From IMG/VR virus record IMGVR_UViG_3300045988_143923: 64,000 nucleotides of DNA, one strand, 5' to 3'. Made by a program: the position numbers and the translations under genes. Shown here in pieces: positions 22,576-63,222 of the stretch. The notes beneath the pieces are model-generated. The model was not told where the DNA came from, did no database searches, and saw only the letters and a list, made by a program, of their open reading frames with translations. Origin of the DNA: a virus. How positions within the stretch are numbered: the stretch's first letter is position 1; every line of letters begins with the position of its first letter.

Positions 22576-23658
22576 GAATGTAACATATAACATCTTGCGG
22601 GGGCGTATGTGGTAACACATACTGAAAAAATCGCCTAACTCGGTGAACCTGAAAAGGAATACCGAACTAAGTTCGTTGCTTAAAATTTTTATAGAAAGGA
22701 GGTTATAATATGCCAAATTATATCGAAAAACTGCCTGAAGATGCAGTTCAGGTAAAAAACGCTTTGTGTTGGGTAACCCCTGCTGGGAATCTTTATGGAC
22801 AAGAAACACGAACATTATATAACAAAAAATTAGATAAAAAAATTCCGCACAAACACTATGGAGAGTTCTTCCAGTATAACACCACCGTGAATCGGAGAAA
22901 TGGTTACGTTTATGCACCCATCAAATACATTAAATCAGATGGGACATACGAAATTCGACGTCGCAGGTTGCACATTGTGATTGCGGAAACATTGCTTCCG
23001 AACCCTAATAAATTTCCTATTGTTGGGCACAAAAACAACATCAAAGCAGATATTAGGCTGAGTAATCTGTATTGGACGACAATCTCTGAGAATACAAAAA
23101 AAGCGTTCGACGATGGATTGGCCGTAAATGCAAAAGGTTATGATGACTCTCAATCTATCCCTGTCATAATGTTCAACACTTATACCAACGAAGAGATAGG
23201 AAGGTATGGAAGTGCCAGTGAAGCAGTGCGAGAAACAGGAATCCCTAAAAATACAGTTTTGCGCCAATGCCGGTATAAGAAACCTGTTCGTAAACCATTC
23301 TACTTCCGATTCCAATCAGACCCGTCGGTTGAACCGCCTCAGATTGTTATCCAATACGACTATGAAACAGATCGTGAAATAGGAAGATATTTCAATGTAT
23401 AGGAGGCAGCACGTCAAACAGGCGTGTATTCGAAGGTAGTAGACTACGAATGTAAATTAGGACATAAACCTGTCCGCAAGCCTAAAAATGGCACATATTT
23501 TACGTTCTATCAATCATCAATCTAAAGGCTCTATAAAATTTTAAGCAACGATAAATGCGTGGAGGTCATCGAAATCCGATAAGGTAAAGTAGAGTAGCGC
23601 AAGCGAAAGAGCGAACTCGTATGAAAAATACGATGAAAATATGACCCAAATAAAAATG
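22576..23658 (+). mobile_element. group I intron in nrdD
   Basis: The NrdD reading frame resumes exactly at 23659 (AENLCYTA...). There is a P1 pairing CCCCU/GGGGG, the intron ends in G, and it carries an HNH ORF. Confidence 0.75.
22710..23525 (+). CDS. HNH homing endonuclease with duplicated DNA-binding repeat, interrupted by an in-frame TAG at 23400..23402
   Basis: VGHKNNIKADIRLSNLYW HNH motif. Repeat 1 reads EEIGRYGSASEAVRETGIPKN...KPVRKP. Repeat 2 reads REIGRYFNV-TAG-EAARQTGVYSK...KPVRKP and continues in frame to the TAA at 23523. Confidence 0.7.
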
Positions 23659-24147
23659 GCAGAAAACTTATGTTACACTGCAATGAAGAAATTTCAGGCA
23701 AAGTACGGAACAATTCCGAACGTATCCGACAAGGATTTCTTCACCAATTCCATTCATGTACCGGTGTGGAGAAAGGTCTCCATTTTCGACAAAATCGGTA
23801 TCGAGTCACAGCTGACCGGCTATTCTTCCGCAGGCTGTATCACTTATGTAGAACTGGAATCTACTTGTAAGAACAATATTTCGGCTCTCGAGACCGTCGT
23901 TAATTACGCGATGGATATGGACATCCCGTACTTCGCGGTGAATGTTCCAAACGACCAGTGTATGAACTGCGGCTATTGCGACGAAATCAACGACACCTGT
24001 CCGCAGTGCGGCAGCAAGGACATCAAACGCCTGCGTCGAGTAACCGGCTATCTTACAAACGACTACAAGACCGCATTCAACAAGGGTAAACAGCAGGAAG
24101 TTGAAATGCGAGTAAAACACGACATGGAGGACAAACATTGTATTTAA
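23659..24147 (+). CDS. nrdD: anaerobic ribonucleoside-triphosphate reductase, exon 2
   Basis: C-terminal CMNCGY...CPQCGS zinc site and glycyl-radical motif RRVTGYL. Confidence 0.85.
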   Translation, partial: AENLCYTAMKKFQAKYGTIPNVSDKDFFTNSIHVPVWRKVSIFDKIGIESQLTGYSSAGCITYVELESTCKNNISALETVVNYAMDMDIPYFAVNVPNDQCMNCGYCDEINDTCPQCGSKDIKRLRRVTGYLTNDYKTAFNKGKQQEVEMRVKHDMEDKHCI

Positions 24148-25462: not shown

Positions 25463-25669
25463 ATGAAAACTTATAAATTGCTGACTGCCGATGAAGTGTC
25501 CAAGTCATTAGGCGTTTCGGTGTCCTATGCTTATAAGATTATCCGCCAGTTGAATGATGAACTTCAAAATCAAGGGTATCTTACAATACATGGGAAAATC
25601 GATTCATCATATTTTCAGAAGCGGTTCTTCCCCTCTTTTGGGAAGGAGGATATTTATGCCTCAGTATAA
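25463..25669 (+). CDS. xis: excisionase-type helix-turn-helix protein
   Basis: LLTADEVSKSLGVSVSYAYKIIRQLNDEL motif, lying immediately upstream of and overlapping the integrase. Confidence 0.6.
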   Translation: MKTYKLLTADEVSKSLGVSVSYAYKIIRQLNDELQNQGYLTIHGKIDSSYFQKRFFPSFGKEDIYASV

Positions 25670-26765
25670 GTACACTACAAAAAAAGGAGTGAAGTGGTAC
25701 TCAAAGTTCAACTATCTCGATGCTCAAACTAATAAGTTTGTAACTACGCTGAAACGTGGATTTTCATCAAAACGAGAGGCGAGAGCGTTTGAAGAAAAAT
25801 TTTTGGATGAGTTAGATTCTCAGTCTCAGTCTTCGACAACGCATACCATAACGGATATTTATAACGAATATCTTTCTTCGTTTAAGCGTTCGGATATGAA
25901 ACAGTCTACTCTGCAGACCAAACGCAACATATTTGCCAGCCATATCGCTCCGTATTTTGAAGGCATCCCAGTTGAAGAAATTACAGCCGCAGACATCGCC
26001 GCATGGCAGAAAAATGTCAAGGAAACAAAAAAGTCAAACGGTCAGCCGCTTTCTCCGGCTTATCTGCGAACGGTACAATCTCAGCTCAACGCTTTGATAA
26101 ACTATGCAAGTGGTAAAGGGTATATTTCTATCAACCCTCTGGTTGACATCAAGAACATGGGAGTGAAAGGTAGACGACTTCTTTTCTGGAGTTACGAAGA
26201 ATATGAAAAGTTTGCATATGAAGCTATGAATTTCCCAACTTACTATTATGCTTATGAAGTCTTATATTGGTGCGGCATTCGAGAAGGCGAATTACTCGCT
26301 CTCACGCGCGAAGATATAGACTTAGACAATCAAACGATTCGTATCAATAAGACATATAGCCGAGTTGGGCGAAAAGACATTATCACAACTCCTAAAACAC
26401 AAAGCTCCGTAAGAACGATTAGCATTCCTCGATTTCTTTGTGATGAATTGACAGAATACTTCGCAATGAAATATGATTTAACGCCAGACCAGCGCATCTT
26501 TGTGTTTACAAAGCACGGGTTATCGAGCAATTTCCATTCTTTGATTGCAAAAGCTAATGTCCCAGATATGCCAATCCACGGATTGAGACATTCTCATGTG
26601 TCCCTTCTTATCAGTAAACAATATAACATTTTTGAAATTTCAAAACGTATTGGCCATAAATCCATCAGTACAACACAAGATATTTACGGCCATTTGTTTG
26701 ACAATGTTCAAAAAGCTATTGCGGACGATCTCAATTCAATGAGGAGTGTTAGAACGGATGTCTAA
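25656..26765 (+). CDS. int: tyrosine integrase (Tn916/phage Int type with arm-binding N-terminus)
   Basis: ATG at 25656 behind a GGGAAGGAGG RBS. Has HGLRHSHVSLL and IGHKSISTTQDIYGHL catalytic motifs. Confidence 0.9.
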   Translation: MPQYKYTTKKGVKWYSKFNYLDAQTNKFVTTLKRGFSSKREARAFEEKFLDELDSQSQSSTTHTITDIYNEYLSSFKRSDMKQSTLQTKRNIFASHIAPYFEGIPVEEITAADIAAWQKNVKETKKSNGQPLSPAYLRTVQSQLNALINYASGKGYISINPLVDIKNMGVKGRRLLFWSYEEYEKFAYEAMNFPTYYYAYEVLYWCGIREGELLALTREDIDLDNQTIRINKTYSRVGRKDIITTPKTQSSVRTISIPRFLCDELTEYFAMKYDLTPDQRIFVFTKHGLSSNFHSLIAKANVPDMPIHGLRHSHVSLLISKQYNIFEISKRIGHKSISTTQDIYGHLFDNVQKAIADDLNSMRSVRTDV

Positions 26766-45602: not shown

Positions 45603-48600
45603 TTATTTTTTGATTTTGAGAACTTCGATAATGTCGTTGACCATGCGGCGAGATACAGCTTCATGCTGCTTAACCGTGTCTCCGTCCGCACCCTTGATGA
45701 TGGTGTCACCGAAGGTAACGTTCGTGACGTTTTCACGCGGGATCGTGACAACTTCACGGTTCACGCCGGAAACAGGCATCTGAGCGGCCTTGGACAGGTC
45801 AGGCAGGGCAGAAGCGGACAAACCGCTGGTAATGGCGGACATTACCTTGAGAATGGAGTCGAGCGACTGCTGTTTGGGCTTGTCGAGCACGATTTCGCCC
45901 TTTTGCAGAATCGCCATCATCTCGTCTTGACGCAGGGTAGAGGCATCGCCGACAACGCCGCCGGTGTGGTATATACCGAGGTACTTATCATAGATGTTAT
46001 TGCCATACTTGTCATACCAAACACCAGTGTGACCATCATAGTGAACACCGAGATCGTACTGGCTGTTGAGTTGACCAGCATAGTCGGCATTCTTTTGGTT
46101 GAGCGCTTTCTTCTGCTCCACCGTCATGTTGGCAGACCAAGTATCACTGTTCTTCTTCATCTTCGCCACGATTCGAGCGATCCCAGCCGCATCTGCATCC
46201 CCAGTGCCGTATTTATTCGAATCGCCAATGATATTGGAGTTGGAACCGTTGGAAGAAGAATTGGAACCGTTTTCACCAAGACGATCATAGACTTCGAGGT
46301 AAGTAGCATTGTACTTCTCCATAGCCTTTTGGGCGTCTTGCCATGCTTGCGTAACCTTGGCATTGATGTCCGAACCCGCACGAGTGTTATATTCAATTAA
46401 ATCATCGTAAAGTGTTGCCCAACCATCTTGTATTCTCTTTCGAGCCATTTGGTAGAGTTTTTCCTCCGATGAAATTGAATCCTGCAGTTTCTTAATCTCG
46501 GCGTCCTTTTCCTTCTCGTAAGCCTCCTGCATCTTATCAAGATTATCGGTCTGACGGTCATAGGCTTCATTTGCCTGCGTCTCGCCAAGTTCTTTTTGGA
46601 GATCGGCGAGTTGTTCTTCAAGGTCTTTACGCTTTGCGATTGACTCGCGGCTGTCATCCAGAGACAGAGCGTTAATCTTCTCTTGGAGCTTTGCCATTTC
46701 CTTGACCTTGTCGGCTACCTCGTCCTGATAGTCGGCTTCGTCCTTGCTCAGTTGCAGGCTTTCCTTCTTCTTATCGATGATCTCGCTATACTTATCCTTC
46801 AGCTCTTCCAGAGCGTCGACCTGCTGGTCGATTTCGTCTCGAATCATATCCTCGACGTACTTGAACAGAGCGTCAACGCTATCCTTGGTGTCGTCGAAGT
46901 CGATTCCGACGCCGGCTTTTACGTTAGCCAGAACGCTGCGGTACGCATCTACATTCTTAACAGCCTGCGCATAGCCTTCCTCGGTGAGGTCAAGCATAGC
47001 GAGCTGTGCGTAAACGGAACCCCACTGAACCTCGGTCAGGTCGGCCGTTGCGTTCAGCAGATTATTCAGAGAAACAACGTCGTTCTCCTGCAGAGCCATA
47101 CGCAGACGCTCCACATAAGCGGAGGCGCTTTCCAAAGCCATCTGCTCAGTCTTAGCTTTGATAACGCGGTTGATGGCTTCCTCGTTGATGGTCAGAAGAC
47201 CATTCTCGTCTTTGAGGTATCCCATGTATTCGACGCCAAGTTTGGAGATTTCTTGGAAGGTATCGACGGAGATAAAACCACCATTTGTCGAGTATTCCTC
47301 GGCAGCCTTCTTGAACGTGTCGAGAACGTCCTGAATCGTATCAACAGAGTCGCTTGCCGCATCAACAATATCAGAGAGATAGTCGATAACTTTCTGCTTA
47401 ACATCCTTAACAGCGTCTTCGTATTCCCACCACTGATCTGAGAGGTCGGCCACTTCGTCGCTAAGGTCGGAATATCCCATGCCACGGTAATACTGCGCTT
47501 CCTTGTGCAGGTTCTTCTGAGCTTCGCGATAATGGTCAATGATGCCGTTGAGCGTAGACTCAATTGCGTCGCCATCGATAGACGAGAAGATAGTATCAAC
47601 AGTCTTGGTTTCGAAACTGTCTGCAATGCCGCTGAAGATGCCGGCCAGAGGATTGCCCTTCTTGGCGACACCGTTCAGAATATTCTGCGACAGCTTTGCC
47701 GAATTGAAAATCTTACGCTGAGCACGAGTGAAAGAGCGTTCGAGCTTATCAGTATCGAGCAGACGGTCAAGGCTTCGCTCGGCCAGTTTGATAGCATTTT
47801 CATGTTCCGACGTGATCTTGTCGTACATGTCCTTCATCGTGTCGATGATGCTGTCATGTGCCTCCCAGTATTTCTTCTGCATAGACATAATGTATTCAGA
47901 AGAATCTTTCTGCCCTTGAGCACGGTAACGCTCGGCGGCTTTATGGGTTTCATCCTGAATCTGCTTATAATAAGCGACAATCTTCATCGGGTCGCCACGC
48001 TGCTTTTCGACGAGGTATATCTTGTGCTCAATCTGGTCGATGATATCTTCGACTTCTTCTTTGATTTTGTCGAGAGCTTCCTTTGCAGAATCTGAAAGCT
48101 GAGAGGTATCAGCAGAGACTTTGACGGTGGCGTTACTGGATTTGCCAGATGAACTGGAAGGCACCCAGTTCCGGTAATGACCATTGGTGGCAAAGCTAAG
48201 ATTGCTCAATGCACCGTTAGCGTTCGCGCCGCCCCACACACCGCCAGATGCTTGATGGGGAATACCGCCGTGCATCAGACCAGCAGTCAGATTAGCAGGA
48301 ACAATCGCGTCACCGGGTTTAGTGTTGATGACTTCCATTCCATGCAAGCCAACAAATTTACTATGCTTGCCGTCCCGAGAAATCCACTGCTCAGGGCCAA
48401 GTTCGCCGACAAGTGTTTTGCCGCCTACAGCGTTGCCGCCAGATGCGTACTGAGTCATTTTGCCAACGTGTCCGGTGAAGTCTTGCTTTTTATTCCCCTC
48501 ACGGCGACTATGAATGTCAGCCTTGGTCTGAGCTTCGGTTCTGGTTGTCTGGACTGTGTTTACGCGAATGGTCACACTCTTATCGTGAATACCACTCATT

Positions 48601-51600
48601 AACCCAACTGTGTATAGAATCTTACTGTTGGCTTCCGAAGTATTTACATTGACATGGCGTTCTTTTTCGATAGGTTTAAGTGCTTCATCTATCGCATTGA
48701 CTTTCCCGGCAGCTTCCACAGTATTCCCTTCAATAGTAAGCTGTACTGGATTTCCCGCCTCATCTTGGATTTGCGCCATCGTACTCAATACAATTTGCGC
48801 CTGTTCTTGCGTAACACCAAGACTGCTTGCGAAAGCATCCAAGTTGCTCACATTGATAGACCAACCACCATCATCAAGACGTTCAACACTAGCAGCAGCT
48901 TCGCCCGAAGCGGTTTTCACGCTTTCAAGAGATGCTTTCAGGCCATCAAAAGTCGGAGTCTCTCCGCCAATGCTTGCCTTGAATTTATTCATGGCACTTA
49001 CAAGCGTGTCGAGCTCATCTACAGATATTTCTTTAACATCAATATCCGTTCCTTCAGTAAGAGACTCGAGTGCGATTTTCGCACTTTCACTCATGTGCTC
49101 CCATGCTTTTGTGGACGACCGATCAGCCGCAGAAACAGATTGTTTGATACGATAGGTGTCATCGTTCAGCGTCTGGATACTTGATGTAACCGAACTAACT
49201 GTTTTCGGAACATAATCCGAATATGTGGAGATTAAATCAAGTGATTGTTGCAGAGAAGCTGCCGAAATTCCAAAAGCGTCGGCCAGAGCGACAACATCAT
49301 GTTGTGCGACTTGGATAGAACCAGTATCCCAATCCACATCCATGAGTCCATCGACAATCTTTTTCTTGTCAGCACTGAGCTCGTTATACTTCTTATGAAG
49401 TGTATTAAACGTTCCGGTTAGGTCTTGACCGACATTATCCTCGTCTGTACCTGTTAAGAAGAGGCCCTCATTGTCCTTAACCCACTGCTTCGCTTCTTGC
49501 AGGCTAACAACCTTGCCGATGAGAAGCTCCATTTGATTGCGAGCTTCCTCTGTGTTAATTTGCCCTTTATTTACTGATTCTGCAAAATCATCGTAGATTG
49601 AAACCATACTCTCGTGATCTTGTACATGGTCGGTAATCCCTTCCATAGAGGTTTCATAATTTGCAAGAGCATCAGAAACCGTATTAAGAGAGTCAGTTTG
49701 TTTGCTCAGGGAATTTGAAATCGCATCCAGAGCTTCAGGCAAAGCGCCAACTTGAGCAAGAGCGGCCAACCGAGCGGCAAATTCCGAAGCATGATCGCCA
49801 GTATCAACCAGAGCGGAATTGAGAGCGGAAAGTTGATTCTTTGACAATTTTTCGAGATTGAAGTCCTTGAGAAGCTCGTCTACGGAAGAACCTTCAATAT
49901 CTGAGCCGCTTAGAGCCTCTTCGAAATTACTCCGGATGGTCTCTCGCATTTGATACATGTCTGACTGGAATTGTTTTAATCCGAAAGCCTCAGACAAATC
50001 AATTGCGTTCATTTCTTCAGGAGTTAATCGTTTCGATAATTCTGCGCGAACAGCCTCCATCACTGTTGACATTTTTGCAACATATTTATCGTAAGGCATC
50101 GAGTCCTGTTCTTCTTGAATCTTATAATAATCAGAAATAGCCTTTTTCCCTGCTTCGGTGTTTTTAACAACTTGAAGCATCGCATTCGCATATCTTAACG
50201 GCGCGTCGGGATTATTTGCGTCATAAAGCGCGTCAGAACTAATGCTGTCAGCGTATTGTGATAAAAATGTTTTCTGCTGGTCATCTAATTCGTAATAGAG
50301 TTTATTCGCCTCAAGAGACGCTTGCATCATCTGCTTGACCTCGGAGCTACTTGCATCTACACTCTCAGAAGCAGAATGCCAAGCATTAGCTAAACTTTCG
50401 CCATCTGCCGATAAATCGCCTGTCATTCCACGCATTTGATTCAATTGACCGAGAATATTATCAAAATTCTTTCCAAGAGCTTCGGAATTATCGCGAATAT
50501 AATCAAGCCAAGTAACACTTTTAGAGCCGTTGGTTTCTTTGTTGATTTTATCAGCGTACTCATCGTAAGTCATACCAATAGTGTCGGAAATTAACTTATT
50601 GAAATTCTTAATATCTCGGCCGCCGTTTTTAGACAAAGCAGTTTGAACCCGAGATAAATAATTAAAGATGTCATTATCGACACTTTTTACGCCTTCCTGT
50701 GCTGTTTTATATTGTTCTTGGAAGTCTTTATAGGCAGCTTCATAATTCTTCTTATGACCGTCATTCTCTGATGATCCACCATATACGGCATCTCGCGCTT
50801 CCTGTCTCTGCTGCTTCTCGAGTAATGCGATTGTTTCCTCGATAGCAGAATTTTTATCCAAGATAGCTTGTTGCTCATCGTTATAACCCTCCACTAATGA
50901 TGGATTGATCCCAACAAGTTGGGAAACAATATCTTGGTATTCTTGATATTCATCGGCAGCCAGAGAAATATTTTTGCCGTTGTCTGTTACGCCCTTGGAC
51001 AATTCTGCGAATCGATCTTTGAGATTTTCGACTGACGTAATATTGCCCTCGATAGATGATTTGGCGCTGTCGTAGTTGCTCAATGCATTTTGGGTTATTT
51101 CGGCTGCTTCTTGTGCGGACATCACTGTTTTATCAATAGCACTCATAAGACCGGTTAGTATAGTCTGAACAGCCATAAATGCTACCATCGACACGGCCAT
51201 ACTTGCAATAGCAGACCCGATCCCCTTAAAAGTCGATGCAATCTTGGCTCCGAGTGTTCCTACCTTTTCTTGCTTTGCAGTGAAGTTATCGATTTGTCCG
51301 TTAACAACATCACACTCATTCCCGACGGTGTCAAGGGATTTAGCAAACTCACGACTTTGAATACTTGCGCCAGAAAGAGCTTTTTCAAAATCAGCACCTC
51401 TAAGTTTTTGCTTCATCTGAGCGTAGTTTTTCAGAATTTCATTTTGTTCCTGCCAATAGTCGTGGTTTTTGGTGTTATAATTTTTCAGCCAACTGAATAA
51501 ACCACTTCCGCCAAAGATGTTTTCTCCATATTCTCCCTTTCCTCCGATAATGCTTTTCCCGTTCATTGACAGAAGCAGGGAACCTACAGGAGCGATAAGC

Positions 51601-51901
51601 CCCGGAAGAACGCCAAGTTTATCAATCAGAGTGTTGAAGAACCCGAGAATGCCAGAACCGGCGCCGATAGTTCCTTTCACAAGACCAGAATCAAGAATAG
51701 AAGTGCTCAAAGACTGGAATGTGGCTTGGAACTGTTGCATTTTACCCTCGATAGAATCAAGATGTTTTGCGTTCTCGGCATCGGCTGAGCCAGTTGCGTT
51801 TTTAGTCGACTCGATGACGTCCTCAACGGTCGACCAGTTCTGGATGAGCGCTGAAGTTGTATTCGCCATTCTCTTCGTTTTGTTTACAAGGGTTGCAAAG
51901 C
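45603..51901 (-). CDS. tail tape measure protein, last exon
   Basis: Reads through ...KTKRMANTTSALIQNW... to the TAA at 45603. The ORF track reports 45603..51869. The exact 3' splice site is uncertain by a few codons. Confidence 0.8.
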
Positions 51902-52274
51902 CTTATGTTGTATCTACAACCTCATGCTTTCGCATGAGACCCGACTATTTCTTCACCCTTAAAACTAAGGGGCATACCTTTTCCATTTAAGGGATTTTCA
52001 CCCACGCCTTTGCTTGCGCCGTACTCCTGTTGCTCATAAAGAGCCGAGGGATAGTCTGTGAACCTTCTCCGTGTCATGAGACCGATAGGAGCTTGGCTGC
52101 ATGATCACCCATTGTTACTGCACTTAGGCTTTTGACCGTATGCAATCCGCACGTTGTTTCTGCTTTCGCACCGTCATAAACTGCTTTCGCGCTCATTGTG
52201 GTGTGCGGCTTTAGGGGGTACCTGCAATTAAATATGTTGTTATTGCACATTGCTGTACAACCGGGCAAGTGAAT
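51902..52274 (-). mobile_element. group I intron 5 in the tape measure gene (family A)
   Basis: P1 pairing CGGGU/GCCCG with U-G. P7 pairing GACUAU/AUAGUC. Terminal G. Confidence 0.7.
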
Positions 52275-52309
52275 ACCCGAAATCTTTTCGAGCAAAGCTC
52301 AGTATATTC
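52275..52309 (-). CDS. tape measure protein, 35-nt micro-exon (…NILSFARKDFG…)
   Basis: Restores the conserved DQANIL.. motif in frame between two introns. Confidence 0.65.
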
Positions 52310-52705
52310 CACGGGGGCACAACTCCCGTGAGCTGTCTAAAACAGCATCTCTGCGTTTCCACAGAAGTTTAGATCATTTCTTAATCGTGCCTTTCGGCGA
52401 CGACCACACCGTTTCCATTTAAGGGGTTCTCACCCACGCCTTTGTTTGCGCCGTACTTCTGTTGCTGCTTACGCAGCCCTACATGGGAATGATCGTTTGA
52501 CACACCTCTATTCGAGGCTTCGCGACCAAGCTACCATTGTCACTGCACTTAGGCTTTTGACCGTATGCAATCCTTACCGTTGTTTTACTTTCGTTCCCGT
52601 CATGCCAGCTTATTTCATCCGCATTGTGGTGGTAAGGCTTTAGGTTTTACTGGTTTTAGATGTGTTATTTACGCACATTTCTGTACGCACAGGCAATATT
52701 GGTCT
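52310..52705 (-). mobile_element. group I intron 4 in the tape measure gene (family A)
   Basis: Close sequence relative of intron 5. P7 pairing GAUCAU/AUGAUC. P1 pairing CAGGC/GCCUG, which is C-G rather than U-G. Terminal G. Confidence 0.65.
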
Positions 52706-52972
52706 GCCTGATCTACGTCACTAAGTTGATCATAAACGCCGGCAATTTCGCGCATAATCTGCGTTGTACTCTTAAATTGAGTGCCTGCCTCGTCGGCCAT
52801 GATGTCAACTTTGTCGTGGGTTAAAGTTTTGATGGTTTCGCGAAGCTCGCTCACAGAGTTTGCCATACCATCCGTTTCGATTCCGGCCTCTTCAGCATCA
52901 GCTTTAGCGGCACGGAGGTACATACTAAGAGTTTTAGCCCATGTCAATCTGTTACTTTCGGCGGGTCGCCTA
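52706..52972 (-). CDS. tape measure protein, exon (…RRPAESNRLTWAKTLSMYLRAAKADAEEAGIETDGM…LSDVDQA)
   Basis: Conserved TMP core, part of ORF 52669..52980. Confidence 0.75.
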
Positions 52973-53132
52973 CTGACCACTTTTGTGGCGGCAAGGCCGT
53001 TAAACCTTGCTCTCGCGTTTCGTTGTTAGATTATAGCGCGAGTTCGGACTGTATCTTCACCCCAGAGCGGGGGAATGGCGAAGCCCCGCTTGTTACCAAG
53101 CGGGGCTTTACAGTCTCTACGGATATTAAAAT

Positions 53133-53651
53133 TTAAGTTATTGGAATGCTGACCGGTTCATCGAAAGAATATAGATCATGATCATTATCCATATAATATA
53201 CTAAATTTGCACTAGTTATATTATCTCGATCATCCCAATGTTCATTGTTACTATCTATGCTCAAAAATCCATCAAATGTTTGATCTGGGGCTAATAAGCC
53301 CGTATGCGTAAAACCTTCGGAGTAAACAATATTCCCGTTTGAATCCAATAAATCTGCACCAATAAGCGGAGATTTCAAAGCAGATCCAGAAATATTTTTT
53401 ATTTTGAAGTAAAAATACATTACAGATTCGCTCTCGTAATTTTCGCATTTTTTAGTTTGAAATGTAACTTCCAAAGGTATATCCACAGGACTAGTTTCAG
53501 GCTTAGCATCAGATTCATCTATTACCGTATATGTTGTAGCTGGAGATTCATCTTGAGCAGGCTCAGCTTTCTCAACGGATTCCTTCCCGCAACCGCAAAA
53601 GCTAAGCGTAGTTATAATAGCCAACAATATAAGGTGGCGTTTTCTTTTCAT
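53133..53651 (-). CDS. intron-encoded secreted lipoprotein-like protein (not a homing endonuclease)
   Basis: ATG at 53651 behind an AAGGGTGAG RBS. MKRKRHLILLAIITTLSFCGC signal/lipobox-like N-terminus and a beta-rich body. AT-rich. Confidence 0.65.
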   Translation of the reverse strand: MKRKRHLILLAIITTLSFCGCGKESVEKAEPAQDESPATTYTVIDESDAKPETSPVDIPLEVTFQTKKCENYESESVMYFYFKIKNISGSALKSPLIGADLLDSNGNIVYSEGFTHTGLLAPDQTFDGFLSIDSNNEHWDDRDNITSANLVYYMDNDHDLYSFDEPVSIPIT

Positions 53652-53673
53652 ATTTCTCACCCTTTCAACTTTA

Positions 53674-53701
53674 ATTATACATTAAAAGAAGAAAAAGTAA
53701 A
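53674..53701 (-). promoter_or_regulatory. candidate promoter (TTTACT-16-TATAAT) for the intron-borne ORF
   Basis: Read on the minus strand upstream of 53651. Confidence 0.4.
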
Positions 53702-53803
53702 TCTTAAATTTTAATCTTTCCTCGGTCTGAACCGTCTCCGGCCTTTAACCGATATAGCCATTTGCTTGCTCGCATATTACTATGCGGCTGGGCGCATGGA
53801 TTC

Positions 53804-53857
53804 ACCCACTGTATCAGGATCTTGTCGTTTCTGTTACTTGTTAGCGCTGATATACCA
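53804..53857 (-). CDS. possible 54-nt (or 51-nt) tape measure mini-exon between tandem introns 3a and 3b
   Basis: Open and frame-preserving (GISALTSNRNDKILIQW) if intron 3a ends at ..AUUAG. It might instead be skipped. Confidence 0.35.
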
Positions 53858-54108
53858 CTAATCTGACCGCAAAGCGGCGGCAAGGTCTTTCGGCCTTACT
53901 CTCACGTTTCCTTTCATTATTGCGTGAGTCCGGACTGTATATTACACCCTTCCCAGAGGAGTGGGGTGGATTGGTTCAGCTCTGGTGTTACCATCAGAAC
54001 CCCGCAGTCTCTACGGATATTGCTACCCACGGTCTCTGCTGTCGCCAGCCTTTGACCGTTTTACCAATCTGCTTGCGAACGTATTACTACGCCGCGTGGC
54101 AAAGATCT
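53858..54108 (-). mobile_element. group I intron 3a in the tape measure gene (family B)
   Basis: P1 pairing GUGGU/GCCAC. Has the CCGUAGAGACUGCGGGG element and P7 pairing GACUG/CAGUC. The 3' end is uncertain by about 5 nt. Confidence 0.65.
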
Positions 54109-54214
54109 ACCACTTCGTTTGCTGCTGTTACGAGGCCCAAACTCTCATCGAGAGAGTTGCCGCCTGCGTACAGAGCTGCTGCTGATCTTTTAAGAGCTTC
54201 GCCAAGCCCTTCTG
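54109..54214 (-). CDS. tape measure protein, 106-nt exon (SEGLGEALKRSAAALYAGGNSLDESLGLVTAANEVV)
   Basis: Matches the conserved TMP core and lies in frame with its neighbours. Confidence 0.75.
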
Positions 54215-54556
54215 CGTACCTTTAGCGCGGGTCGTTACTCCGCACCGACATAAAGTCCTCCGTCTTTCAACGGAGCCGAGATCATATCTTCACCCCATAG
54301 GGTGCCTACCACTTTCAGAGCACTCGCCCCTACTTTGATCGTTGAACCTTCCTCTGTTCGAGGCTTGGCTGCTGATTATCCATTGTCACGGCGTTTAGGG
54401 TTTAACCTTGCGCCATCTCTCATTTTTTTTCTGCTTTCGCCGCATTCACGTTTGCGCCTGTTCGGCACTGCGTTGTAGCATGAGAGCTTTAGGACGTCCC
54501 AGCAATTCAATAGGTGATTTTGCGAACACATTTCTGTGAACGAAGTCCAATGATTA
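54215..54556 (-). mobile_element. group I intron 2 in the tape measure gene (family A)
   Basis: P1 pairing AAGUU/GACUU with U-G. P7 pairing GAUCA/UGAUC. Terminal G. Confidence 0.7.
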
Positions 54557-54579
54557 AACTTATCGCGTAGTTGTTTCCG
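54557..54579 (-). CDS. tape measure protein, 23-nt micro-exon (GNNYAIS)
   Basis: CGGAAACAACTACGCGATAAGTT completes ..FNEV|GNNYAIS|SEGLGEAL.. in frame. Confidence 0.7.
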
Positions 54580-54856
54580 CTGTTTGTTACTTTTTTCCTT
54601 AAAAACGAAAAGAACAGGTCATTTCTGCCTGTTTCTGCAATTTCATTATTCGATTATATTTGCAGACCCGACTATATCTTCACCTCCAAAAAAGGAGGGG
54701 ATGGCATGACTCTGCACGTTACCGTGCAAAATCGGTTAGTCTGTACGGATTCTTGTGGTCAAACACAAGTCTTTCCTCGGTATTGCCCATCTCTGGGTGT
54801 TCACCGATATAGCCATCTTTTACGCTGCACATCGCTGTGCAGGGAGGCCGGTCAAA
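54580..54856 (-). mobile_element. group I intron 1 in the tape measure gene (family B)
   Basis: P1 pairing GAGGU/GCCUC. Has the CCGUACAGACUAACCG and GAAGAUAUAGUCGGG elements. Terminal G. Confidence 0.7.
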
Positions 54857-56621: not shown

Positions 56622-57209
56622 TTAAATTTTAGAACTGTTCTTGGGATATTTAATTTCGACCCGAGAAATTTTCGCAGTGTCTAACGCAATTTTTCGAGTG
56701 TCGTCTTCTTTGTAATCAAATATCGGTTCATCCGCATGTGATTCGCTACCCTGATATTTTTTGTAATTAGTTAAAACAATCCACTGTCGGCCATCCTCGC
56801 TTTTGTGATCTTCTGTAAAATATCCACGATAAGACACATCAGAATCACTTAGATATACGCGGAGCGTAGTTCCTTTTTCGAAGTCGGATATTGCATACCA
56901 GACATCTTCTTCGAGCGTTTTATAGAAGAATTGGTCGAGAATACATGATACAAATTCAGAATTGCGGAGAATGCCACCAACGAACCCGAAAGCAAAAGAA
57001 AATGCAAGGATTGCTAAAATACTAATTTGAGGATAAACAGAGCGAAGAACGACAGTCAGAACATAGCTCCAAATAATTGTAGTTGCGGAGAAAATATCTC
57101 TTTTAGCCGAATAGCGTGCTGTCAGTTTATATGCGAACATAAAAACAGTAGCAGGCACAAAATATACCATTATTTTGTCGAGATTTTCTAAAATATACTC
57201 AATGTTCAT
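56622..57209 (-). CDS. polytopic membrane protein with soluble C-terminal domain
   Basis: 195 aa, three to four N-terminal TM helices, AT-rich. Confidence 0.55.
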   Translation of the reverse strand: MNIEYILENLDKIMVYFVPATVFMFAYKLTARYSAKRDIFSATTIIWSYVLTVVLRSVYPQISILAILAFSFAFGFVGGILRNSEFVSCILDQFFYKTLEEDVWYAISDFEKGTTLRVYLSDSDVSYRGYFTEDHKSEDGRQWIVLTNYKKYQGSESHADEPIFDYKEDDTRKIALDTAKISRVEIKYPKNSSKI

Positions 57210-59772: not shown

Positions 59773-60780
59773 TCACTTTTCGGCTTCTTCTGCCTCCGCA
59801 GCGCGTTTGTTTTCAAAGAACTTGCTCAGTCGCTCGCTGGCTGGCACATCGTTATAAACCTGTACCATCGCGCTGTTCGCCCAGCCGACCACATCGGTAA
59901 TATCGCTCTCAGACATACCGTCACGCACCAGATTGGACACAAAAAGGTGCCGCATAGAGTGCCAGTAGAACGGCTTAACCGTGAATCGGTCAATCGTCTG
60001 TGCCCAGCTGTTCAAAGTCTCGGCCGAAGCCTGCTCGTAACCCTTATCGGTTTTGGTCACGAACAGCCATTCGCTGTTAATGCTGAGGTCTTTACGCTGC
60101 TGTAACCAGCGTTTCAGGTACGGGTCAAATCCTGATTTTATAACGTAGCAGTCGATCATCTTCGCACCCTTGGTCAAAACCTTCTCGGGAGTGCAGTAAA
60201 AATAGTCAAAAACCACGTTTTCAGGCTTAAACCAGTCCACTTTGAATCGAGTCAGTTCAGCCTTTCGGCGACCGCTGTAGACTGCCAGAGCGAGAGCACA
60301 GGCAATCTGAAACTTGCCCGCCTCAGTCAGTTTCTGCAGAATAACCTCCATCTCCTCGGTGGAGAAGACGCTCTTCTCACGGACAGGCGTATTCTGTGGG
60401 TTCTCAATCTTGCGGATGATCGGACGGAAGTCCTCGTATTCATCGTCAAGGATGTTCTCGATGTAGTTCGAGAGAGAAGAAAGCGCCGCCTTTACACGGC
60501 GCACACGGGCAGGGGAGTTGCCGTTCTCGTTGATGAGCCAGTTCTGTAGAGAAACAATCTCTCGCTTTTTCAAATCAATGAACGACTTATTTCCGCAGTG
60601 CTGGAGCACATAAGTGAATACGATAAGCAGGTCGCTCTTGTATCCTTTAATCGTGCCTTCACTGCGTTTTAGAGAACGAAGATACTCCAGAAAATCATTC
60701 ATCAACTGAATGTTCTCCGGATTTATCTGCTTCGTCAGCTCCGGAGAGGTCAGCTTGTTCATCTGTGTCTGGCGTCCCAT
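59773..60780 (-). CDS. tyrosine recombinase (XerC/D-phage integrase family), second copy in the window
   Basis: ATG at 60780 behind a GGAAAGGAGGGTGAAG RBS. Has SAM-like N-terminal and WHSMRHLFVSNL...VGWANSAMVQVY motifs. Confidence 0.8.
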   Translation of the reverse strand: MGRQTQMNKLTSPELTKQINPENIQLMNDFLEYLRSLKRSEGTIKGYKSDLLIVFTYVLQHCGNKSFIDLKKREIVSLQNWLINENGNSPARVRRVKAALSSLSNYIENILDDEYEDFRPIIRKIENPQNTPVREKSVFSTEEMEVILQKLTEAGKFQIACALALAVYSGRRKAELTRFKVDWFKPENVVFDYFYCTPEKVLTKGAKMIDCYVIKSGFDPYLKRWLQQRKDLSINSEWLFVTKTDKGYEQASAETLNSWAQTIDRFTVKPFYWHSMRHLFVSNLVRDGMSESDITDVVGWANSAMVQVYNDVPASERLSKFFENKRAAEAEEAEK

Positions 60781-61360
60781 CTTCACCCTCCTTTCCGAAA
60801 AGGCCGTAGACGAGGTTGTCTGCTGTGGAATCATCCAGTGTGCCGGACAGCAGTGCCTTCGCAGTATCAACATCAATGCCGGTAATCACATTCTTCAGAC
60901 CACTCATCAGGTCAGTCGCCGCGTCTGCGATACGGTCAAACGGGTTAGACTGGGTCATTGCCTGCATCAGTACCAACTCGGTATCAATCGCGGCGTTAAT
61001 CTGCTTGTAACAAGCCTCTTCCAGCTCAGCCAGTTTATCCTCGCCGATAACCTCTGCAATCAGAGTATAGATATCGGTCTTGTACAGCAGAGCAGCTTCA
61101 AAGCCACCATCCAGTGAGATATGCAGGTCAGTGCAAATCTTCACGACAGCGGAGCGGAAAGCCCAGTCAACCAGACCAAAATTGCGGCCGTCACCGTCAT
61201 CAATATGCTGGCCGACCTCATTTACAATAGTCGCACGCATCTTCGGGGTAATCAGCGGCTTAATCTTGATTGGAATAATGGTCTCGCCGATAGTGAGATC
61301 CTTGGTTACAGACTCTACATACGGAGTCAGAGCCGCCATAATATCAGTCTTCTTGGACAT
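60695..61360 (-). CDS. hypothetical protein with acidic C-terminal tail
   Basis: 221-aa ORF. Its 3' end overlaps the recombinase start by 86 nt. Confidence 0.5.
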   Translation of the reverse strand: MSKKTDIMAALTPYVESVTKDLTIGETIIPIKIKPLITPKMRATIVNEVGQHIDDGDGRNFGLVDWAFRSAVVKICTDLHISLDGGFEAALLYKTDIYTLIAEVIGEDKLAELEEACYKQINAAIDTELVLMQAMTQSNPFDRIADAATDLMSGLKNVITGIDVDTAKALLSGTLDDSTADNLVYGLFGKEGEDGTPDTDEQADLSGADEADKSGEHSVDE

Positions 61361-63050: not shown

Positions 63051-63126
63051 TGGCACGAGTGCTTCGAGTCGAACGAAGATCGGAGAATTTTGGAGATTCC
63101 CAGTTTCCCAATTAGCCTACACTCGC
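63051..63126 (-). tRNA. tRNA-Trp (anticodon CCA)
   Basis: Hand-folded 76-nt cloverleaf. Anticodon loop CUCCAAA, T arm CTTCG-TTCGACT-CGAAG, encoded CCA. There is one C-A mismatch in the D stem and a G1-U72 pair. Confidence 0.8.
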
Positions 63127-63129
63127 ATG

Positions 63130-63222
63130 TGGCAGAGATGGTTGGATTCGAACCAACGAGCGAGAGCGTTACCTCTCTTGGCGGAGTCAAATTCCGCTGC
63201 CTTACCGCTTGGCCACACCTCT
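63130..63222 (-). tRNA. tRNA-Gln (anticodon UUG) with an 18-nt hairpin inserted in the variable loop
   Basis: 93 nt. It has the Gln-type D arm GCCAAGCGGTAAGGC, anticodon stem-loop GCGGA-AUUUGAC-UCCGC, T arm GTTGG-TTCGAAT-CCAAC and G73-CCA. The variable region is CAAGAGAGGTAACGCTCTCGCTC. Confidence 0.7.

What the first reader, a model, noticed from the sequence alone, without database searches (positions are those of the whole stretch)
53133..53701. Group I intron in the tape measure gene carries a promoter-equipped lipoprotein gene instead of a homing endonuclease
The only ORF in the six TMP introns is 53133..53651. It encodes a 172-aa protein with a signal peptide and lipobox-like MKRKRHLILLAIITTLSFCGC and a beta-rich extracellular-looking body. 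It has no nuclease motif. It is markedly AT-rich and has its own RBS and a TTTACT-16-TATAAT candidate promoter, so it could be expressed independently of the late operon, for example in a lysogen. Prophage lipoproteins such as Ltp of Streptococcus phage TP-J34 block superinfection by interfering with the incoming tape measure protein. A lipoprotein moron nested inside the tape measure gene itself is therefore a suggestive arrangement.
Basis: partly seen in the sequence, partly recalled or inferred. Interest (0 to 1): 0.7.

Follow-up and report, generated by a model that had tools for sequence, protein, structure and literature searches.

The report
Variable lipoprotein gene inside a phage intron
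A self-splicing intron in the tail tape-measure gene of a gut Butyricicoccus prophage carries, where a homing nuclease normally sits, a promoter-equipped and highly variable surface lipoprotein gene, so a ribozyme is serving as the carrier for an accessory gene.

Summary
On the minus strand, 53651..53133 encodes a 172-aa protein. It has a signal peptide, a lipobox (SFCG|C), a disordered linker and a confidently modelled Ig-like beta sandwich, with no nuclease fold. The ORF fills the loop closed by helix P6a of the fourth of six group I introns (53803..52945) in an 8.4-kb tape measure gene.

New findings:
- Every complete copy of this intron found in public data carries such a gene. None is empty or holds a nuclease.
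- There are seven allele classes, 26-61% identical, set in a ribozyme that is 93-100% identical. Each class is under purifying selection.
- A conserved -10 box sits in the loop of a hairpin that pairs the ribosome-binding site with sequence upstream of the predicted transcription start. This is the phage T4 intron-gene design. The hairpin is lost or weak in two chromosomal copies.
- The phage occurs as a prophage in Butyricicoccus.

The gene is best read as a "moron" (an add-on gene with its own promoter) translated only from that promoter. A role in superinfection exclusion is plausible but untested. The protein is not an Ltp relative, and nothing links it functionally to the tape measure protein.

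The parts
53133..53651 (-). Lipoprotein gene, 172 aa, allele class A: signal peptide, lipobox SFCG|C (Cys21), about 35-aa disordered linker, Ig-like beta-sandwich domain (residues 57-172)
53589..53651 (-). Codons 1-21: n-region KRKR, hydrophobic core, lipobox, invariant Cys21 (53591-53589)
53656..53662 (-). Shine-Dalgarno GGGTGAG, 4 nt before the ATG
53674..53701 (-). Sigma-A-type promoter candidate: -35 TTTACT (53701-53696), 16-nt spacer, -10 TATAAT (53679-53674). The 13-mer TTAATGTATAATT is identical in cassettes whose proteins are 26% identical
53657..53700 (-). SD-sequestering hairpin: 5' arm TTACTTTTTC (53700-53691, upstream of the predicted transcription start), -10 box in the loop, 3' arm GAAAGGGTGA (53666-53657, containing the SD)
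   Evidence: T4 precedent in PMC2988022
53703..53715 (-). P6a 5' strand ATTAAAATTTAAG
53125..53137 (-). P6a 3' strand CTTAAATTTTAAT, a 13-bp perfect stem with 53715-53703. It contains the stop codon
52945..53803 (-). Group I intron 4 of the TMP gene (859 nt). Helices P1-P9.2 are all present. P3 is 53762-53757 / 53079-53074 and P7 is 53115-53111 / 53051-53047. The 5' exon ends in U and the intron ends in G
53804..53825 (-). TMP exon 4 (22 nt, ..QDPDTVG)
52704..52944 (-). TMP exon 5 (241 nt, TWAKTLSMYLR...DQA)
53826..54108 (-). Intron 3 (283 nt), paralog of intron 4, with no ORF here. In relatives L015 and L045 its P6a loop carries a 319-aa homing endonuclease gene
54580..54856 (-). Intron 1 (277 nt), paralog of introns 3 and 4. 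Rfam RF00028 scores 32.7 bits, E=8.8e-6
54215..54556 (-). Intron 2 (342 nt), Rfam RF00028 69.2 bits. Junction corrected using intron-less L040
52298..52703 (-). Intron 5 (406 nt). Absent from L001-L006, L008 and L021
51876..52274 (-). Intron 6 (399 nt), Rfam RF00028 61.2 bits
45603..56532 (-). Tape measure protein gene, 7 exons, spliced length 8364 nt / 2787 aa

Best explanation
This is an accessory gene with its own promoter (a 'moron') parked in a ribozyme loop.

Shown by the sequence comparisons:
- Intron 4 of the tape measure gene is a group I intron with no homing endonuclease.
- Its P6a terminal loop is the place where sister introns hold nuclease genes. Here it is filled by a 590-nt AT-rich cassette made of a promoter-like site, a ribosome-binding site and a lipoprotein gene.
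- The cassette is exchanged as a unit between otherwise near-identical introns, in seven allele classes.
- Every class is kept intact by purifying selection.

Inferred:
- The protein is exported, lipid-anchored at Cys21, and displayed on the outer face of the membrane of its Gram-positive host (Butyricicoccus). It sits on a flexible tether ending in an Ig-like beta sandwich whose surface varies freely.
- Expression is gated as in the phage T4 intron genes.
- In late read-through RNA (TMP pre-mRNA or excised intron), a hairpin pairs the SD with a CU-rich tract lying between the -35 and -10 boxes. Ribosomes therefore stay out of the intron and splicing is not disturbed.
- RNA started at the internal promoter lacks that arm and can be translated. 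The protein would then be made when host RNA polymerase fires that promoter, most likely in the lysogen.

Most likely role, about 0.35 on its own: changing the cell surface so that related phages are kept out (superinfection exclusion or receptor masking). The allele turnover would reflect that arms race.

Sitting in an intron gives the gene a harmless insertion site. It probably also gives it a ride on homing events driven by neighbouring nuclease-bearing introns.
For: Intron and position:
- The spliced TMP is in frame and is supported by PF10145 and by uninterrupted homologs.
- L015 has the exon 4 / exon 5 junction with no intron, exactly where predicted. There the last exon-4 codon is GGA rather than GGU.
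- Helices P1-P9.2 show compensatory changes among orthologs and paralogs.
- P6a closes the ORF loop in the minimum-free-energy fold of the full intron.
- The same loop holds a homing endonuclease in intron 3 of L015 (phrog_559, 1e-41).

Gene reality and nature:
- dN/dS is 0.08-0.28 within classes.
- Cys21 is invariant and the lipobox is present.
- The AF2 model is a beta sandwich with pLDDT >92.
- Foldseek returns Ig-like domains and phage lipoproteins, and no nuclease.

Cassette behaviour:
- The contigs carrying the intron-4 core (7 viral, 19 metagenomic) yielded 16 complete P6a loops. All 16 hold a lipoprotein ORF, none is empty, and none holds a nuclease.
- Classes are 26-61% identical while the ribozyme halves are 93-100% identical.
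- Breakpoints fall at the ORF ends, within 95%-identical 10-kb flanks.

Gating:
- P(SD unpaired) is 0.02-0.16 in read-through RNA against 0.38-0.99 from the predicted start.
- Only 0-5 of 100-200 shuffles reach values as low, and three different arm sequences achieve this.
- The hairpin is lost in chromosomal copy L007 and weak in L013.
- The T4 design is described in PMC2988022.

Lysogeny:
- The window encodes an arm-type integrase.
- Allele D is WP_118358997.1 of Butyricicoccus, on contigs of 0.52 and 1.70 Mb.
Against: - There are no expression data of any kind. The transcription start, the promoter activity and the hairpin's effect are all predictions.
- The promoter motif alone is not above chance for this AT-rich stretch.
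- No terminator follows the gene, so a promoter-initiated RNA would run into the 3' half of the ribozyme and the TMP exons.
- The lipobox of this allele is atypical (F at -3, C at -2) and fails the strict Gram-positive pattern. SignalP and LipoP could not be run.
- The function has no homology support. There is no Pfam, NCBIfam, PADLOC or annotated PHROG family.
- Some phages carry a frameshifted copy (L009, P0004-6), and one relative lacks the whole intron (L015). The gene is therefore dispensable for phage growth.
- High ribozyme identity could reflect RNA constraint rather than recent spread.
Confidence: 0.55

Rival explanations
1. Lysogenic-conversion factor aimed at the host's environment rather than at phages. 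The anchored Ig-like domain would bind a glycan, mucus, another cell or a host immune component, and would improve the fitness of Butyricicoccus lysogens in the gut. Allele diversity would reflect niche or immune selection.
For: - The fold resembles Ig-like modules of glycoside hydrolases, IrmA and ApaG-type domains.
- Derived copies have settled in bacterial chromosomes beside sugar-utilisation genes (L013) and elsewhere (L007), and remain under purifying selection with dN/dS 0.07-0.19.
- The phage is common in human gut metagenomes; allele A and D proteins are on 265-408 contigs.
Against: - No ligand-binding family or motif was detected.
- The invariant residues look structural only.
- Seven deeply diverged alleles swapped at one phage locus is the pattern usually seen for phage-phage or phage-defence conflict genes. 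That is an inference, not a test.
Confidence: 0.25
2. One reading: an Ltp-like exclusion protein that blocks the tape measure protein of incoming phages. It would be placed inside the TMP gene because the two are functionally matched.
For: - It is a lipoprotein with a flexible tether, as Ltp is, and Ltp's target is a TMP (PMC3952083, citing Bebeacua 2013).
- Tight linkage of an exclusion allele to a TMP allele could in principle be selected.
- The TMP middle region is also highly variable among relatives.
Against: - The fold is all-beta and no similarity to Ltp was found in any library.
- The same lipoprotein allele occurs with different TMP variants, and different alleles occur with about 95%-identical TMP flanks.
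- The location is explained by intron clustering in the conserved PhageMin_Tail domain. TMP introns are already known in B. cereus prophages (PMC2504315).
Confidence: 0.1
3. A late protein translated from the TMP pre-mRNA or the excised intron. It would act in lysis, in release, or in protecting progeny from adsorbing to cell debris, like the T5 Llp lipoprotein that masks the phage receptor (Llp recalled from memory).
For: - The gene has the same orientation as the late operon, so it is certainly transcribed late.
- No terminator or insulator separates it from that operon.
Against: - The SD is predicted to be paired in exactly those read-through RNAs, in all seven allele classes, with compensatory changes.
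- A conserved -10 box would be unnecessary under this reading.
Confidence: 0.07
4. A functionless passenger: a captured gene decaying in a loop where an endonuclease gene once sat. Alternatively, a protein that serves the intron itself, as a maturase or homing helper.
For: - Frameshifted copies exist.
- The intron is optional.
- Intron loops tolerate junk.
Against: - Purifying selection acts in every class, with 0.05 for the domain.
- All 16 complete loops found in the census carry an intact ORF.
- The regulatory elements are conserved.
- An exported lipoprotein cannot act on RNA or DNA in the cytoplasm.
- There is no nucleic-acid-binding fold.
Confidence: 0.03

Closest known systems
[quoted passage not shown]
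   Same: - The ORF sits in a peripheral loop of a phage group I intron (P6a for the td intron, from my own knowledge).
- It has its own promoter immediately upstream.
[quoted passage not shown]
- The rationale is to keep ribosomes out of the ribozyme (PMC2988022).
   Different: - The cargo is an exported lipoprotein, not a nuclease, so it cannot mobilise the intron.
- The promoter looks like a host sigma-A type, not a T4 late promoter.
- The cargo exists as seven exchangeable alleles.
- The phage is temperate.
Prophage morons that encode envelope lipoproteins: Ltp of TP-J34, and from memory Cor of phi80/HK022, Llp of T5 and Bor of lambda
   Same: - A small lipid-anchored protein encoded by a phage.
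- Its own promoter-like signal.
- Base composition unlike its surroundings.
- Not needed for lytic growth.
- Exclusion is the commonest known role of such proteins (PMC3952083).
   Different: - There is no sequence or fold kinship with any of them.
- It is not in a lysogeny module or an intergenic gap, but inside a ribozyme within an essential structural gene.
- No terminator follows it.
- Its function is untested.
IStrons (group I intron plus IS605/IS607 transposon) and fungal mitochondrial rps3 inside the mL2449 intron
   Same: They show that group I introns can carry genes other than homing endonucleases. A survey of bacterial introns noted 'uncharacterized accessory factors' among associated genes (PMC10690162). 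The rps3 case is from my own knowledge.
   Different: - IStron cargo (TnpA, TnpB) still serves mobility and sits at the 3' end of the intron.
- rps3 is a housekeeping gene.
- Here the cargo is a variable surface protein with its own promoter, in the P6a loop of a phage intron.
Group I introns in prophage tape measure genes of the Bacillus cereus group
   Same: Several group I introns at different positions within one TMP gene of temperate phages of Firmicutes (PMC2504315).
   Different: Six introns fall within about 170 codons here, and one of them carries a lipoprotein cassette. No such cargo is mentioned in the passages I read.
Collaborative homing of endonuclease-less introns (Bonocora and Shub; Zeng et al. 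2009), from my own knowledge
   Same: An intron with no nuclease of its own lies 22 nt from an intron that carries a nuclease in some relatives. Co-conversion could therefore spread it.
   Different: This is entirely inferred here. No cross or cleavage-site data exist.

Membership tests
Group I intron (Rfam RF00028) | Excision restores an uninterrupted host reading frame at a precise junction | tested here: met
   In-frame 2787-aa TMP. No gap at VG|TWAK against uninterrupted TMPs. L015 has the intron-less junction.
Group I intron (Rfam RF00028) | Conserved core: P1 with a U.G pair at the 5' splice site, P3-P8, the P7 pseudoknot, and a terminal G | tested here: met
   All helices were located and fully paired, with compensatory changes in P2, P3, P6a, P7, P7.1 and P8 among orthologs and paralogs. 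The exon ends in U and the intron ends in G.
Group I intron (Rfam RF00028) | Score above the Rfam gathering threshold (50 bits) | tested here: not met
   Intron 4 gives no hit, either whole or as halves. The 590-nt loop insert breaks the model. Paralog intron 1 scores 32.7 bits (E=8.8e-6). Introns 2 and 6 pass at 69 and 61 bits.
Group I intron (Rfam RF00028) | Self-splicing activity | not testable with these tools
   Needs in vitro transcription and GTP-dependent splicing, or RT-PCR.
Homing endonucleases (LAGLIDADG, GIY-YIG, HNH, His-Cys, PD-(D/E)XK) | A nuclease motif or fold | tested here: not met
   No Pfam, PHROG or NCBIfam nuclease hit. The confident model is a beta sandwich whose structural neighbours are Ig-like domains. 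Positive control: the ORF in L015 intron 3 hits HNH and homing-endonuclease PHROGs at 1e-41.
Bacterial lipoproteins (Lgt/Lsp substrates) | Positively charged n-region, hydrophobic h-region, lipobox ending in Cys within residues 15-35 | tested here: met
   The PROSITE-type rule is met at Cys21 (SFCG|C). It is met in 7 of the 9 family members tested, and the Cys is invariant. The strict G+LPP pattern is not met for this allele.
Bacterial lipoproteins (Lgt/Lsp substrates) | Diacylglyceryl modification and signal peptidase II cleavage | not testable with these tools
   Needs labelling, globomycin treatment or mass spectrometry.
Ltp-type superinfection exclusion lipoproteins | Sequence or fold similarity to Ltp (helical repeat domains, recalled from Bebeacua et al. 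2013) | tested here: not met
   The model is all-beta. No Ltp-related hit in Pfam, PHROGs, NCBIfam or PADLOC.
Ltp-type superinfection exclusion lipoproteins | Gene located in the lysogeny module | tested here: not met
   The gene lies in a TMP intron at 53 kb. The arm-type integrase is at 25.5-26.8 kb. Ltp's location is given in PMC3952083.
Ltp-type superinfection exclusion lipoproteins | Blocks DNA entry by interacting with the incoming TMP | not testable with these tools
   Needs challenge and binding assays.
DUF4352 / DUF5067 Ig-like domains | Match to the Pfam profile | tested here: not met
   No hit at E<=10 for any of 8 members. Only DUF3426 appears, at E about 0.08-0.09.
DUF4352 / DUF5067 Ig-like domains | The same fold | tested here: inconclusive
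   Foldseek lists DUF4352- and DUF5067-named phage proteins at E 1e-4 to 3e-3, but with TM 0.31-0.35 and high rmsd. This is a generic Ig-like sandwich.
Moron (Hendrix-type add-on gene in a phage genome) | Its own promoter | tested here: inconclusive
   A 10/12 consensus match. The -10 box is conserved across cassettes of 26% protein identity and in chromosomal copies. No transcript data exist.
Moron (Hendrix-type add-on gene in a phage genome) | Its own terminator | tested here: not met
   No terminator-like site follows the stop codon. Chromosomal copy L007 does have one.
Moron (Hendrix-type add-on gene in a phage genome) | Deviant base composition and presence/absence among close relatives | tested here: met
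   35.5% against 47.8% GC. Absent, with its intron, from L015. Alleles are swapped.
T4-type translational gating of intron ORFs | A hairpin pairs the SD, and the internal promoter starts RNA inside the hairpin | tested here: met
   Predicted in all 7 allele classes, with three different arm sequences and 0-5 of 100-200 shuffles as low. The -10 box lies in the hairpin loop. Prediction only.

The most novel reading that the evidence does not exclude
The intron works as a vehicle and gene drive for a hypervariable surface-protein cassette.

- The ribozyme loop is a safe harbour, bounded by conserved sequence that lets alleles be swapped by recombination.
- T4-style gating keeps the cargo silent in late RNA.
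- Homing by the neighbouring nuclease-bearing intron, 22 nt away, spreads intron and cargo through co-infecting phages faster than ordinary inheritance would.
- The alleles are specificity determinants of exclusion between members of this phage group, possibly matched to the tail genes they ride in.
- The cassette has also escaped into host chromosomes, taking a piece of ribozyme with it.
Probability: 0.2. Interest if true: 0.88.

Novelty: new variant of a known kind. Interest (0 to 1): 0.72.

Why it matters
Bacterial and phage group I introns are thought of as carrying a homing nuclease or nothing. Here one carries a regulated accessory gene that is under selection and exists as exchangeable alleles. 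Nearly the whole known protein family lives in this one ribozyme loop.

If the predictions hold, three things follow:
- Self-splicing introns would be a further route by which temperate phages carry and spread host-interaction genes, without disrupting essential genes.
- The T4 solution to the conflict between translation and splicing would have arisen, or been kept, in a gut Clostridia phage for a quite different cargo.
- The system would offer a tractable test of whether cargo can hitch a ride on intron homing.

It also flags a new family of surface lipoproteins in Butyricicoccus, a common butyrate-producing gut genus, that may govern which phages can infect lysogens.

Tried and rejected
- Rfam on intron 4, whole and as two halves cut at the loop: no group I hit. 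The only matches were spurious ones of the P7.1 hairpin to sRNA terminators. I fell back on hand-located helices checked by script.
- MAFFT alignments of intron paralogs (A5) and of the leaders (A6) put P3' and the hairpin arms out of register. The count of structure pairs was therefore not used. Per-sequence folding with shuffles was used instead.
- Two scans of species-representative genomes (GTDB) found nothing, one with the lipoprotein profile and one with the TMP N-terminus. The host came instead from a cluster name.
- Pfam, PHROGs, NCBIfam, PADLOC and the PDB sequence search gave no family for the protein. The hits to Cor, PG1828 and similar families cover only the signal peptide.
- My first junction for intron 2 (AISLYAEG) was wrong by 6 nt. 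Intron-less L040 corrected it to AISSEG.
- I considered that the P7.1 hairpin after the gene might be the cassette's terminator. I rejected this because ORF-less paralogs have the same element with a GUAA loop and there is no U-tract.
- I considered that the 13-bp inverted repeat might be the terminal repeat of a transposon. It is better explained as P6a, because the chromosomal copy also carries 26 nt of ribozyme core beyond it.
- Literature searches found no report of a lipoprotein or a moron in a group I intron.
Full report
**1. What is there.** All features are on the minus strand.
- The ORF runs from ATG 53651 to TAA 53135-53133 and encodes 172 aa.
- It lies between two long ORFs that are the ends of one tape measure protein (TMP) gene: 56532-54820 and 51869-45603.
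- Rfam finds group I introns at 54566-54258 (69 bits) and 52284-51921 (61 bits), and a sub-threshold one at 54866-54648 (32.7 bits, E=8.8e-6).
- From reading-frame continuity, paralogy between introns, and relatives that lack single introns, I derived seven exons:
  - 56532-54857
  - 54579-54557
  - 54214-54109
  - 53825-53804
  - 52944-52704
  - 52297-52275
  - 51875-45603
- Joined, they give 8364 nt and 2787 aa with no internal stop.
- The spliced region hits PF10145 (PhageMin_Tail) in one stretch at 53.5 bits. The unspliced pieces gave only faint hits.
- The spliced region also aligns as a single piece with uninterrupted TMPs: MT837120 at 55.6% and Brevibacillus phage Sundance at 39%.
All six end in G, and five follow a U.

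**2. Intron 4 and the place of the ORF.** Intron 4 is 53803-52945 (859 nt).
- A 90%-identical relative, L015, has exon 4 joined directly to exon 5 (..GTA GGA|ACA TGG..) exactly at the predicted junction. The window has GGU before the intron, as the U.G pair of P1 requires.
- Rfam does not recognise intron 4, whole or in halves.
- Even so, every helix from P1 to P9.2 is present in the canonical order and fully paired, with compensatory changes:

| Helix | Window intron 4 | Variants elsewhere |
|---|---|---|
| P2 | CGCATA/TATGCG | CACACA/TGTGTG in L008 |
| P3 | AATGGC/GCCATT | AATAGC/GCTATT, GATTGG/CCAATC, GATCAC/GTGATC |
| P7 | GACUG/CAGUC | GACUA/UAGUC in intron 1 |

- The ORF with its upstream signals fills the loop closed by a perfect 13-bp stem, P6a (53715-53703 with 53137-53125). 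The stop codon lies in the 3' strand of that stem.
- The stem survives in the minimum-free-energy fold of the whole 871-nt RNA.
- In relatives L015 and L045, the same loop of paralogous intron 3 carries a 319-aa ORF. It matches HNH, homing-endonuclease and intron-encoded-nuclease PHROGs at 1e-41 to 2e-10.
- An intron-1-like intron in L037 also ends an ORF there.
- The lipoprotein gene therefore sits where this intron family normally keeps its nuclease.

**3. The protein.**
- The N-terminus (KRKR, a 12-residue hydrophobic core, SFCG|C) passes the PROSITE-type lipobox rule at Cys21. It fails the stricter Gram-positive pattern.
- Cys21 is one of only seven invariant positions across the family.
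- AlphaFold2 (AF2) with a shallow alignment gives pLDDT >92 for residues 57-172 as a seven-strand beta sandwich. Residues 22-54 are disordered, as expected for a tether.
- Foldseek finds ApaG/DUF525, IrmA, Ig-like modules of GH2 enzymes and 4les in the PDB.
- Among viral models it finds unnamed phage proteins, DUF5067- and DUF4352-named proteins and phage lipoproteins. TM-scores are modest and no nuclease appears.
- No Pfam, NCBIfam, PADLOC or annotated PHROG family is matched. The sub-threshold hits cover only the signal peptide.
- The family is tiny. A full HMMER pass over 1.84 billion representatives gave 13 hits, and a profile search of 5.8 billion clusters gave 11.

**4. It is a gene, and it is a swappable cassette.**
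- Searching for the intron-4 5' core found 7 viral and 19 metagenomic contigs. Sixteen complete P6a loops were recovered, and each contains an intact lipoprotein ORF. None is empty and none holds a nuclease.
- The ORFs fall into seven classes with pairwise identity of 26-61%:

| Class | Length (aa) | Example |
|---|---|---|
| A | 172 | this window |
| B | 174 | L008, L070 |
| C | 172 | L021, L057 |
| D | 151-153 | L042, L073 (P0016) |
| E | 191 | L012 (P0010) |
| F | 179 | L064, L067 |
| G | 197 | L072 |

- The two ribozyme halves stay 93-100% identical to the window. That is more conserved than the adjoining exon 5, at 75-89%.
- Against an allele-D phage (L075), 10 kb of upstream sequence is 95.7% identical up to ten bases inside the ORF. 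Similarity then vanishes and resumes 28 bases before the stop.
- Synonymous divergence between classes is saturated.
- Within classes dN/dS is 0.08-0.28, and 0.05 for the folded domain of class A.
- Old alleles are thus being exchanged by recombination in the conserved flanks, and each is maintained by selection.
- One variant (L009, P0004-6) has 42 nt replaced by 62 nt and is frameshifted. The gene can therefore be lost.

**5. Expression signals.**
- TTTACT-16-TATAAT (53701-53674) is the best sigma-70-type match in the 3.2-kb intron region. Two such sites against 4.5 expected is not significant in itself.
- The weight comes from conservation. The 13-mer TTAATGTATAATT is identical in the two leader types: type 1 for classes A and C, and type 2 for classes D to G. 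Class B has a type-1 variant leader with TATATT. The proteins behind the two types are about 30% identical.
- A TATAAT is also kept in the two chromosomal copies.
- Folding the leader shows a hairpin. Its 5' arm is a CU-rich tract between the -35 and -10 boxes (53700-53691), its loop holds the -10 box, and its 3' arm is the Shine-Dalgarno (SD) sequence (53666-57).

| RNA | Predicted probability that the SD is unpaired |
|---|---|
| Read-through, all seven intron-borne classes | 0.02-0.16 |
| Started about 7 nt after the -10 box | 0.38-0.99 |

- Only 0-5 of 100-200 shuffles of the upstream part reach values as low as the read-through figures.
- Three different arm pairs do the job: CUUUUUCUUC/GAAAGGGUGA, UUUUCCACCUUU/AAGAGGUGGAAAA and CCAUUCUCUU/AAAGGAGUGG.
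- In chromosomal copy L007 the pairing is gone (0.53, with 186 of 200 shuffles as low). In L013 it is weak (0.31, 39 of 200).
[quoted passage not shown] There it limits translation to promoter-initiated RNA and protects splicing (PMC2988022).
- No terminator follows the gene.

**6. Phage and host.**
- The window also encodes a tyrosine integrase with an arm-binding domain (25554-26765), DNA polymerase III alpha, DnaB, primase and an anaerobic ribonucleotide reductase.
- Allele D is WP_118358997.1, annotated 'hypothetical protein [unclassified Butyricicoccus]'. It lies in the same TMP context on an NCBI contig of 523,545 bp and on contigs of up to 1.70 Mb.
- Allele A relatives are on contigs of up to 439 kb.
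- These contigs are longer than any phage contig of this group (at most 175 kb). The phage therefore exists as an integrated prophage of Butyricicoccus (Clostridia).

**7. Escape to chromosomes.**
- In L013 a 606-nt, 35.6%-GC insert lies in 55-62%-GC DNA among sugar-utilisation genes. It carries a class-F-like gene (71% identical) and is flanked by a 70-nt direct repeat.
- Its similarity to the intron-borne cassette starts at the P6 strand. It ends 26 nt into the ribozyme core: GAGCTGTAAAGTCCCGCTTGATA against GAGACTGTAAAGCCCCGCTTGGTAA.
- This copy therefore came from an intron.
- L007 holds a class-A/B-like gene between a 5S rRNA gene and a sulfatase-family gene, with its own terminator.

**8. 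Interpretation.**
- Shown:
  - the intron, the loop position and the absence of a nuclease
  - the lipoprotein-type signals and the fold
  - the allele series and the purifying selection
  - the conserved -10 box and the predicted hairpin
  - the prophage state
- Inferred:
  - that the promoter fires in lysogens
  - that the hairpin gates translation
  - that the protein is lipidated and exposed on the surface
  - that its role is exclusion of related phages (about 0.35), rather than a host-directed conversion function (about 0.25)
- The Ltp analogy fails as a family assignment. There is also no sign that the TMP location is functional. TMP introns are known elsewhere (PMC2504315), and the same alleles occur with different TMP variants.
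- A further inference is that the cassette gains mobility by co-conversion when the neighbouring intron's nuclease cuts. Exon 4 is only 22 nt long.

**9. Novelty.**
- Each ingredient is known: introns in TMP genes, intron ORFs with their own promoter and a gating hairpin, prophage lipoprotein morons, and non-nuclease cargo in IStrons (PMC10690162).
- I found no report of the combination. That combination is a regulated, hypervariable surface-lipoprotein cassette that is the constant occupant of a ribozyme loop.
- I rate it a new variant of a known kind, with interest 0.72.

Noticed in passing
L013:5493-6238 (metagenome contig ERZ28639949 scaffold_1154): A chromosomal copy of the cassette (P0011, 71% identical to intron-borne class F). 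It is a 606-nt AT-rich insert flanked by a 70-nt direct repeat of 90% identity. It carries 26 nt of ribozyme core (P7/P7.1) after the stop codon, so it derives from an intron-borne copy. The insertion mechanism is unknown.
   Followed up: partly
L007:560-1260: A second free-standing copy (P0003, 54% identical to the window protein), at 32% GC within 57%-GC DNA, lying between a 5S rRNA gene and a sulfatase/LtaS-like gene. It keeps the TATAAT box and part of the inverted repeat, has gained a clear terminator, and has lost the SD hairpin.
   Followed up: partly
L009:8596-9140 (also P0004, P0005, P0006; L068): In some class-A phages, 42 nt of the ORF after residue 92 are replaced by an unrelated 62 nt that contains TTGCGT-16-TATAAT. 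This frameshifts the gene. It is either a pseudogene or a small insertion element.
   Followed up: partly
window 20830-24147 (+): The anaerobic ribonucleotide reductase gene nrdD is split. Profile positions 2-414 fall in 20830-22590 and positions 415-562 in 23641-24147. Between them lies a 230-aa HNH endonuclease ORF (22710-23402). Rfam finds no intron there, so it may be an unrecognised intron or a free-standing nuclease that splits the gene.
   Followed up: partly
L015:2868-3827, and L045: Intron 3 of these relatives has a 964-bp insert in its P6a loop encoding a zinc-finger plus HNH-type homing endonuclease. In the window this intron is empty. A GIY-YIG endonuclease sits in a further intron, far downstream in the TMP gene, in L002, L004 and L078.
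   Followed up: partly
window 51876-54856, compared with L001-L006, L008, L015, L021, L040-L045: The set of introns differs between phages that are 90-99% identical.
- Introns 1 and 2 are absent from L040, L021 and L045.
- Intron 4 is absent from L015.
- Introns 5 and 6 are absent from L001-L006, L008 and L021.
- L041-L044 appear to have a single intron in place of introns 5 and 6.
Exon sequence next to the intron-5 site differs sharply between intron-plus and intron-minus alleles.
   Followed up: partly
window 56622-57209 (-): A 195-aa AT-rich (about 39% GC) predicted membrane protein with no family hit lies between the PhoH-like gene and the TMP gene. It is present in L075, L076 and L079 and absent from L001, L077 and L078. 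It looks like a second add-on gene site.
   Followed up: partly
window 48489-50729 (-), inside TMP exon 7: The middle of the TMP is far more divergent between relatives (77% identical or not alignable) than its flanks (about 95%).
   Followed up: no
window 59773-60876 (-): A second tyrosine recombinase (SAM-like N-terminal domain plus catalytic domain) sits inside the structural gene block, between a RuvC-like gene and a YomN-like gene. It is conserved in all relatives and is distinct from the arm-type integrase at 25554-26765.
   Followed up: no
window 63051-63222 (-): Phage-borne tRNA-Trp(CCA) and tRNA-Gln(TTG) genes lie side by side.
   Followed up: no
window 53078-53138 (-): The P7.1 hairpin of intron 4 (GCCCCGCUUG-GUAA-CAAGCGGGGC) gives weak Rfam matches to the terminator ends of unrelated sRNA families (BTnc060, RsmY). 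I judge these spurious. It is a native intron element with a GNRA loop and no U-tract.
   Followed up: yes
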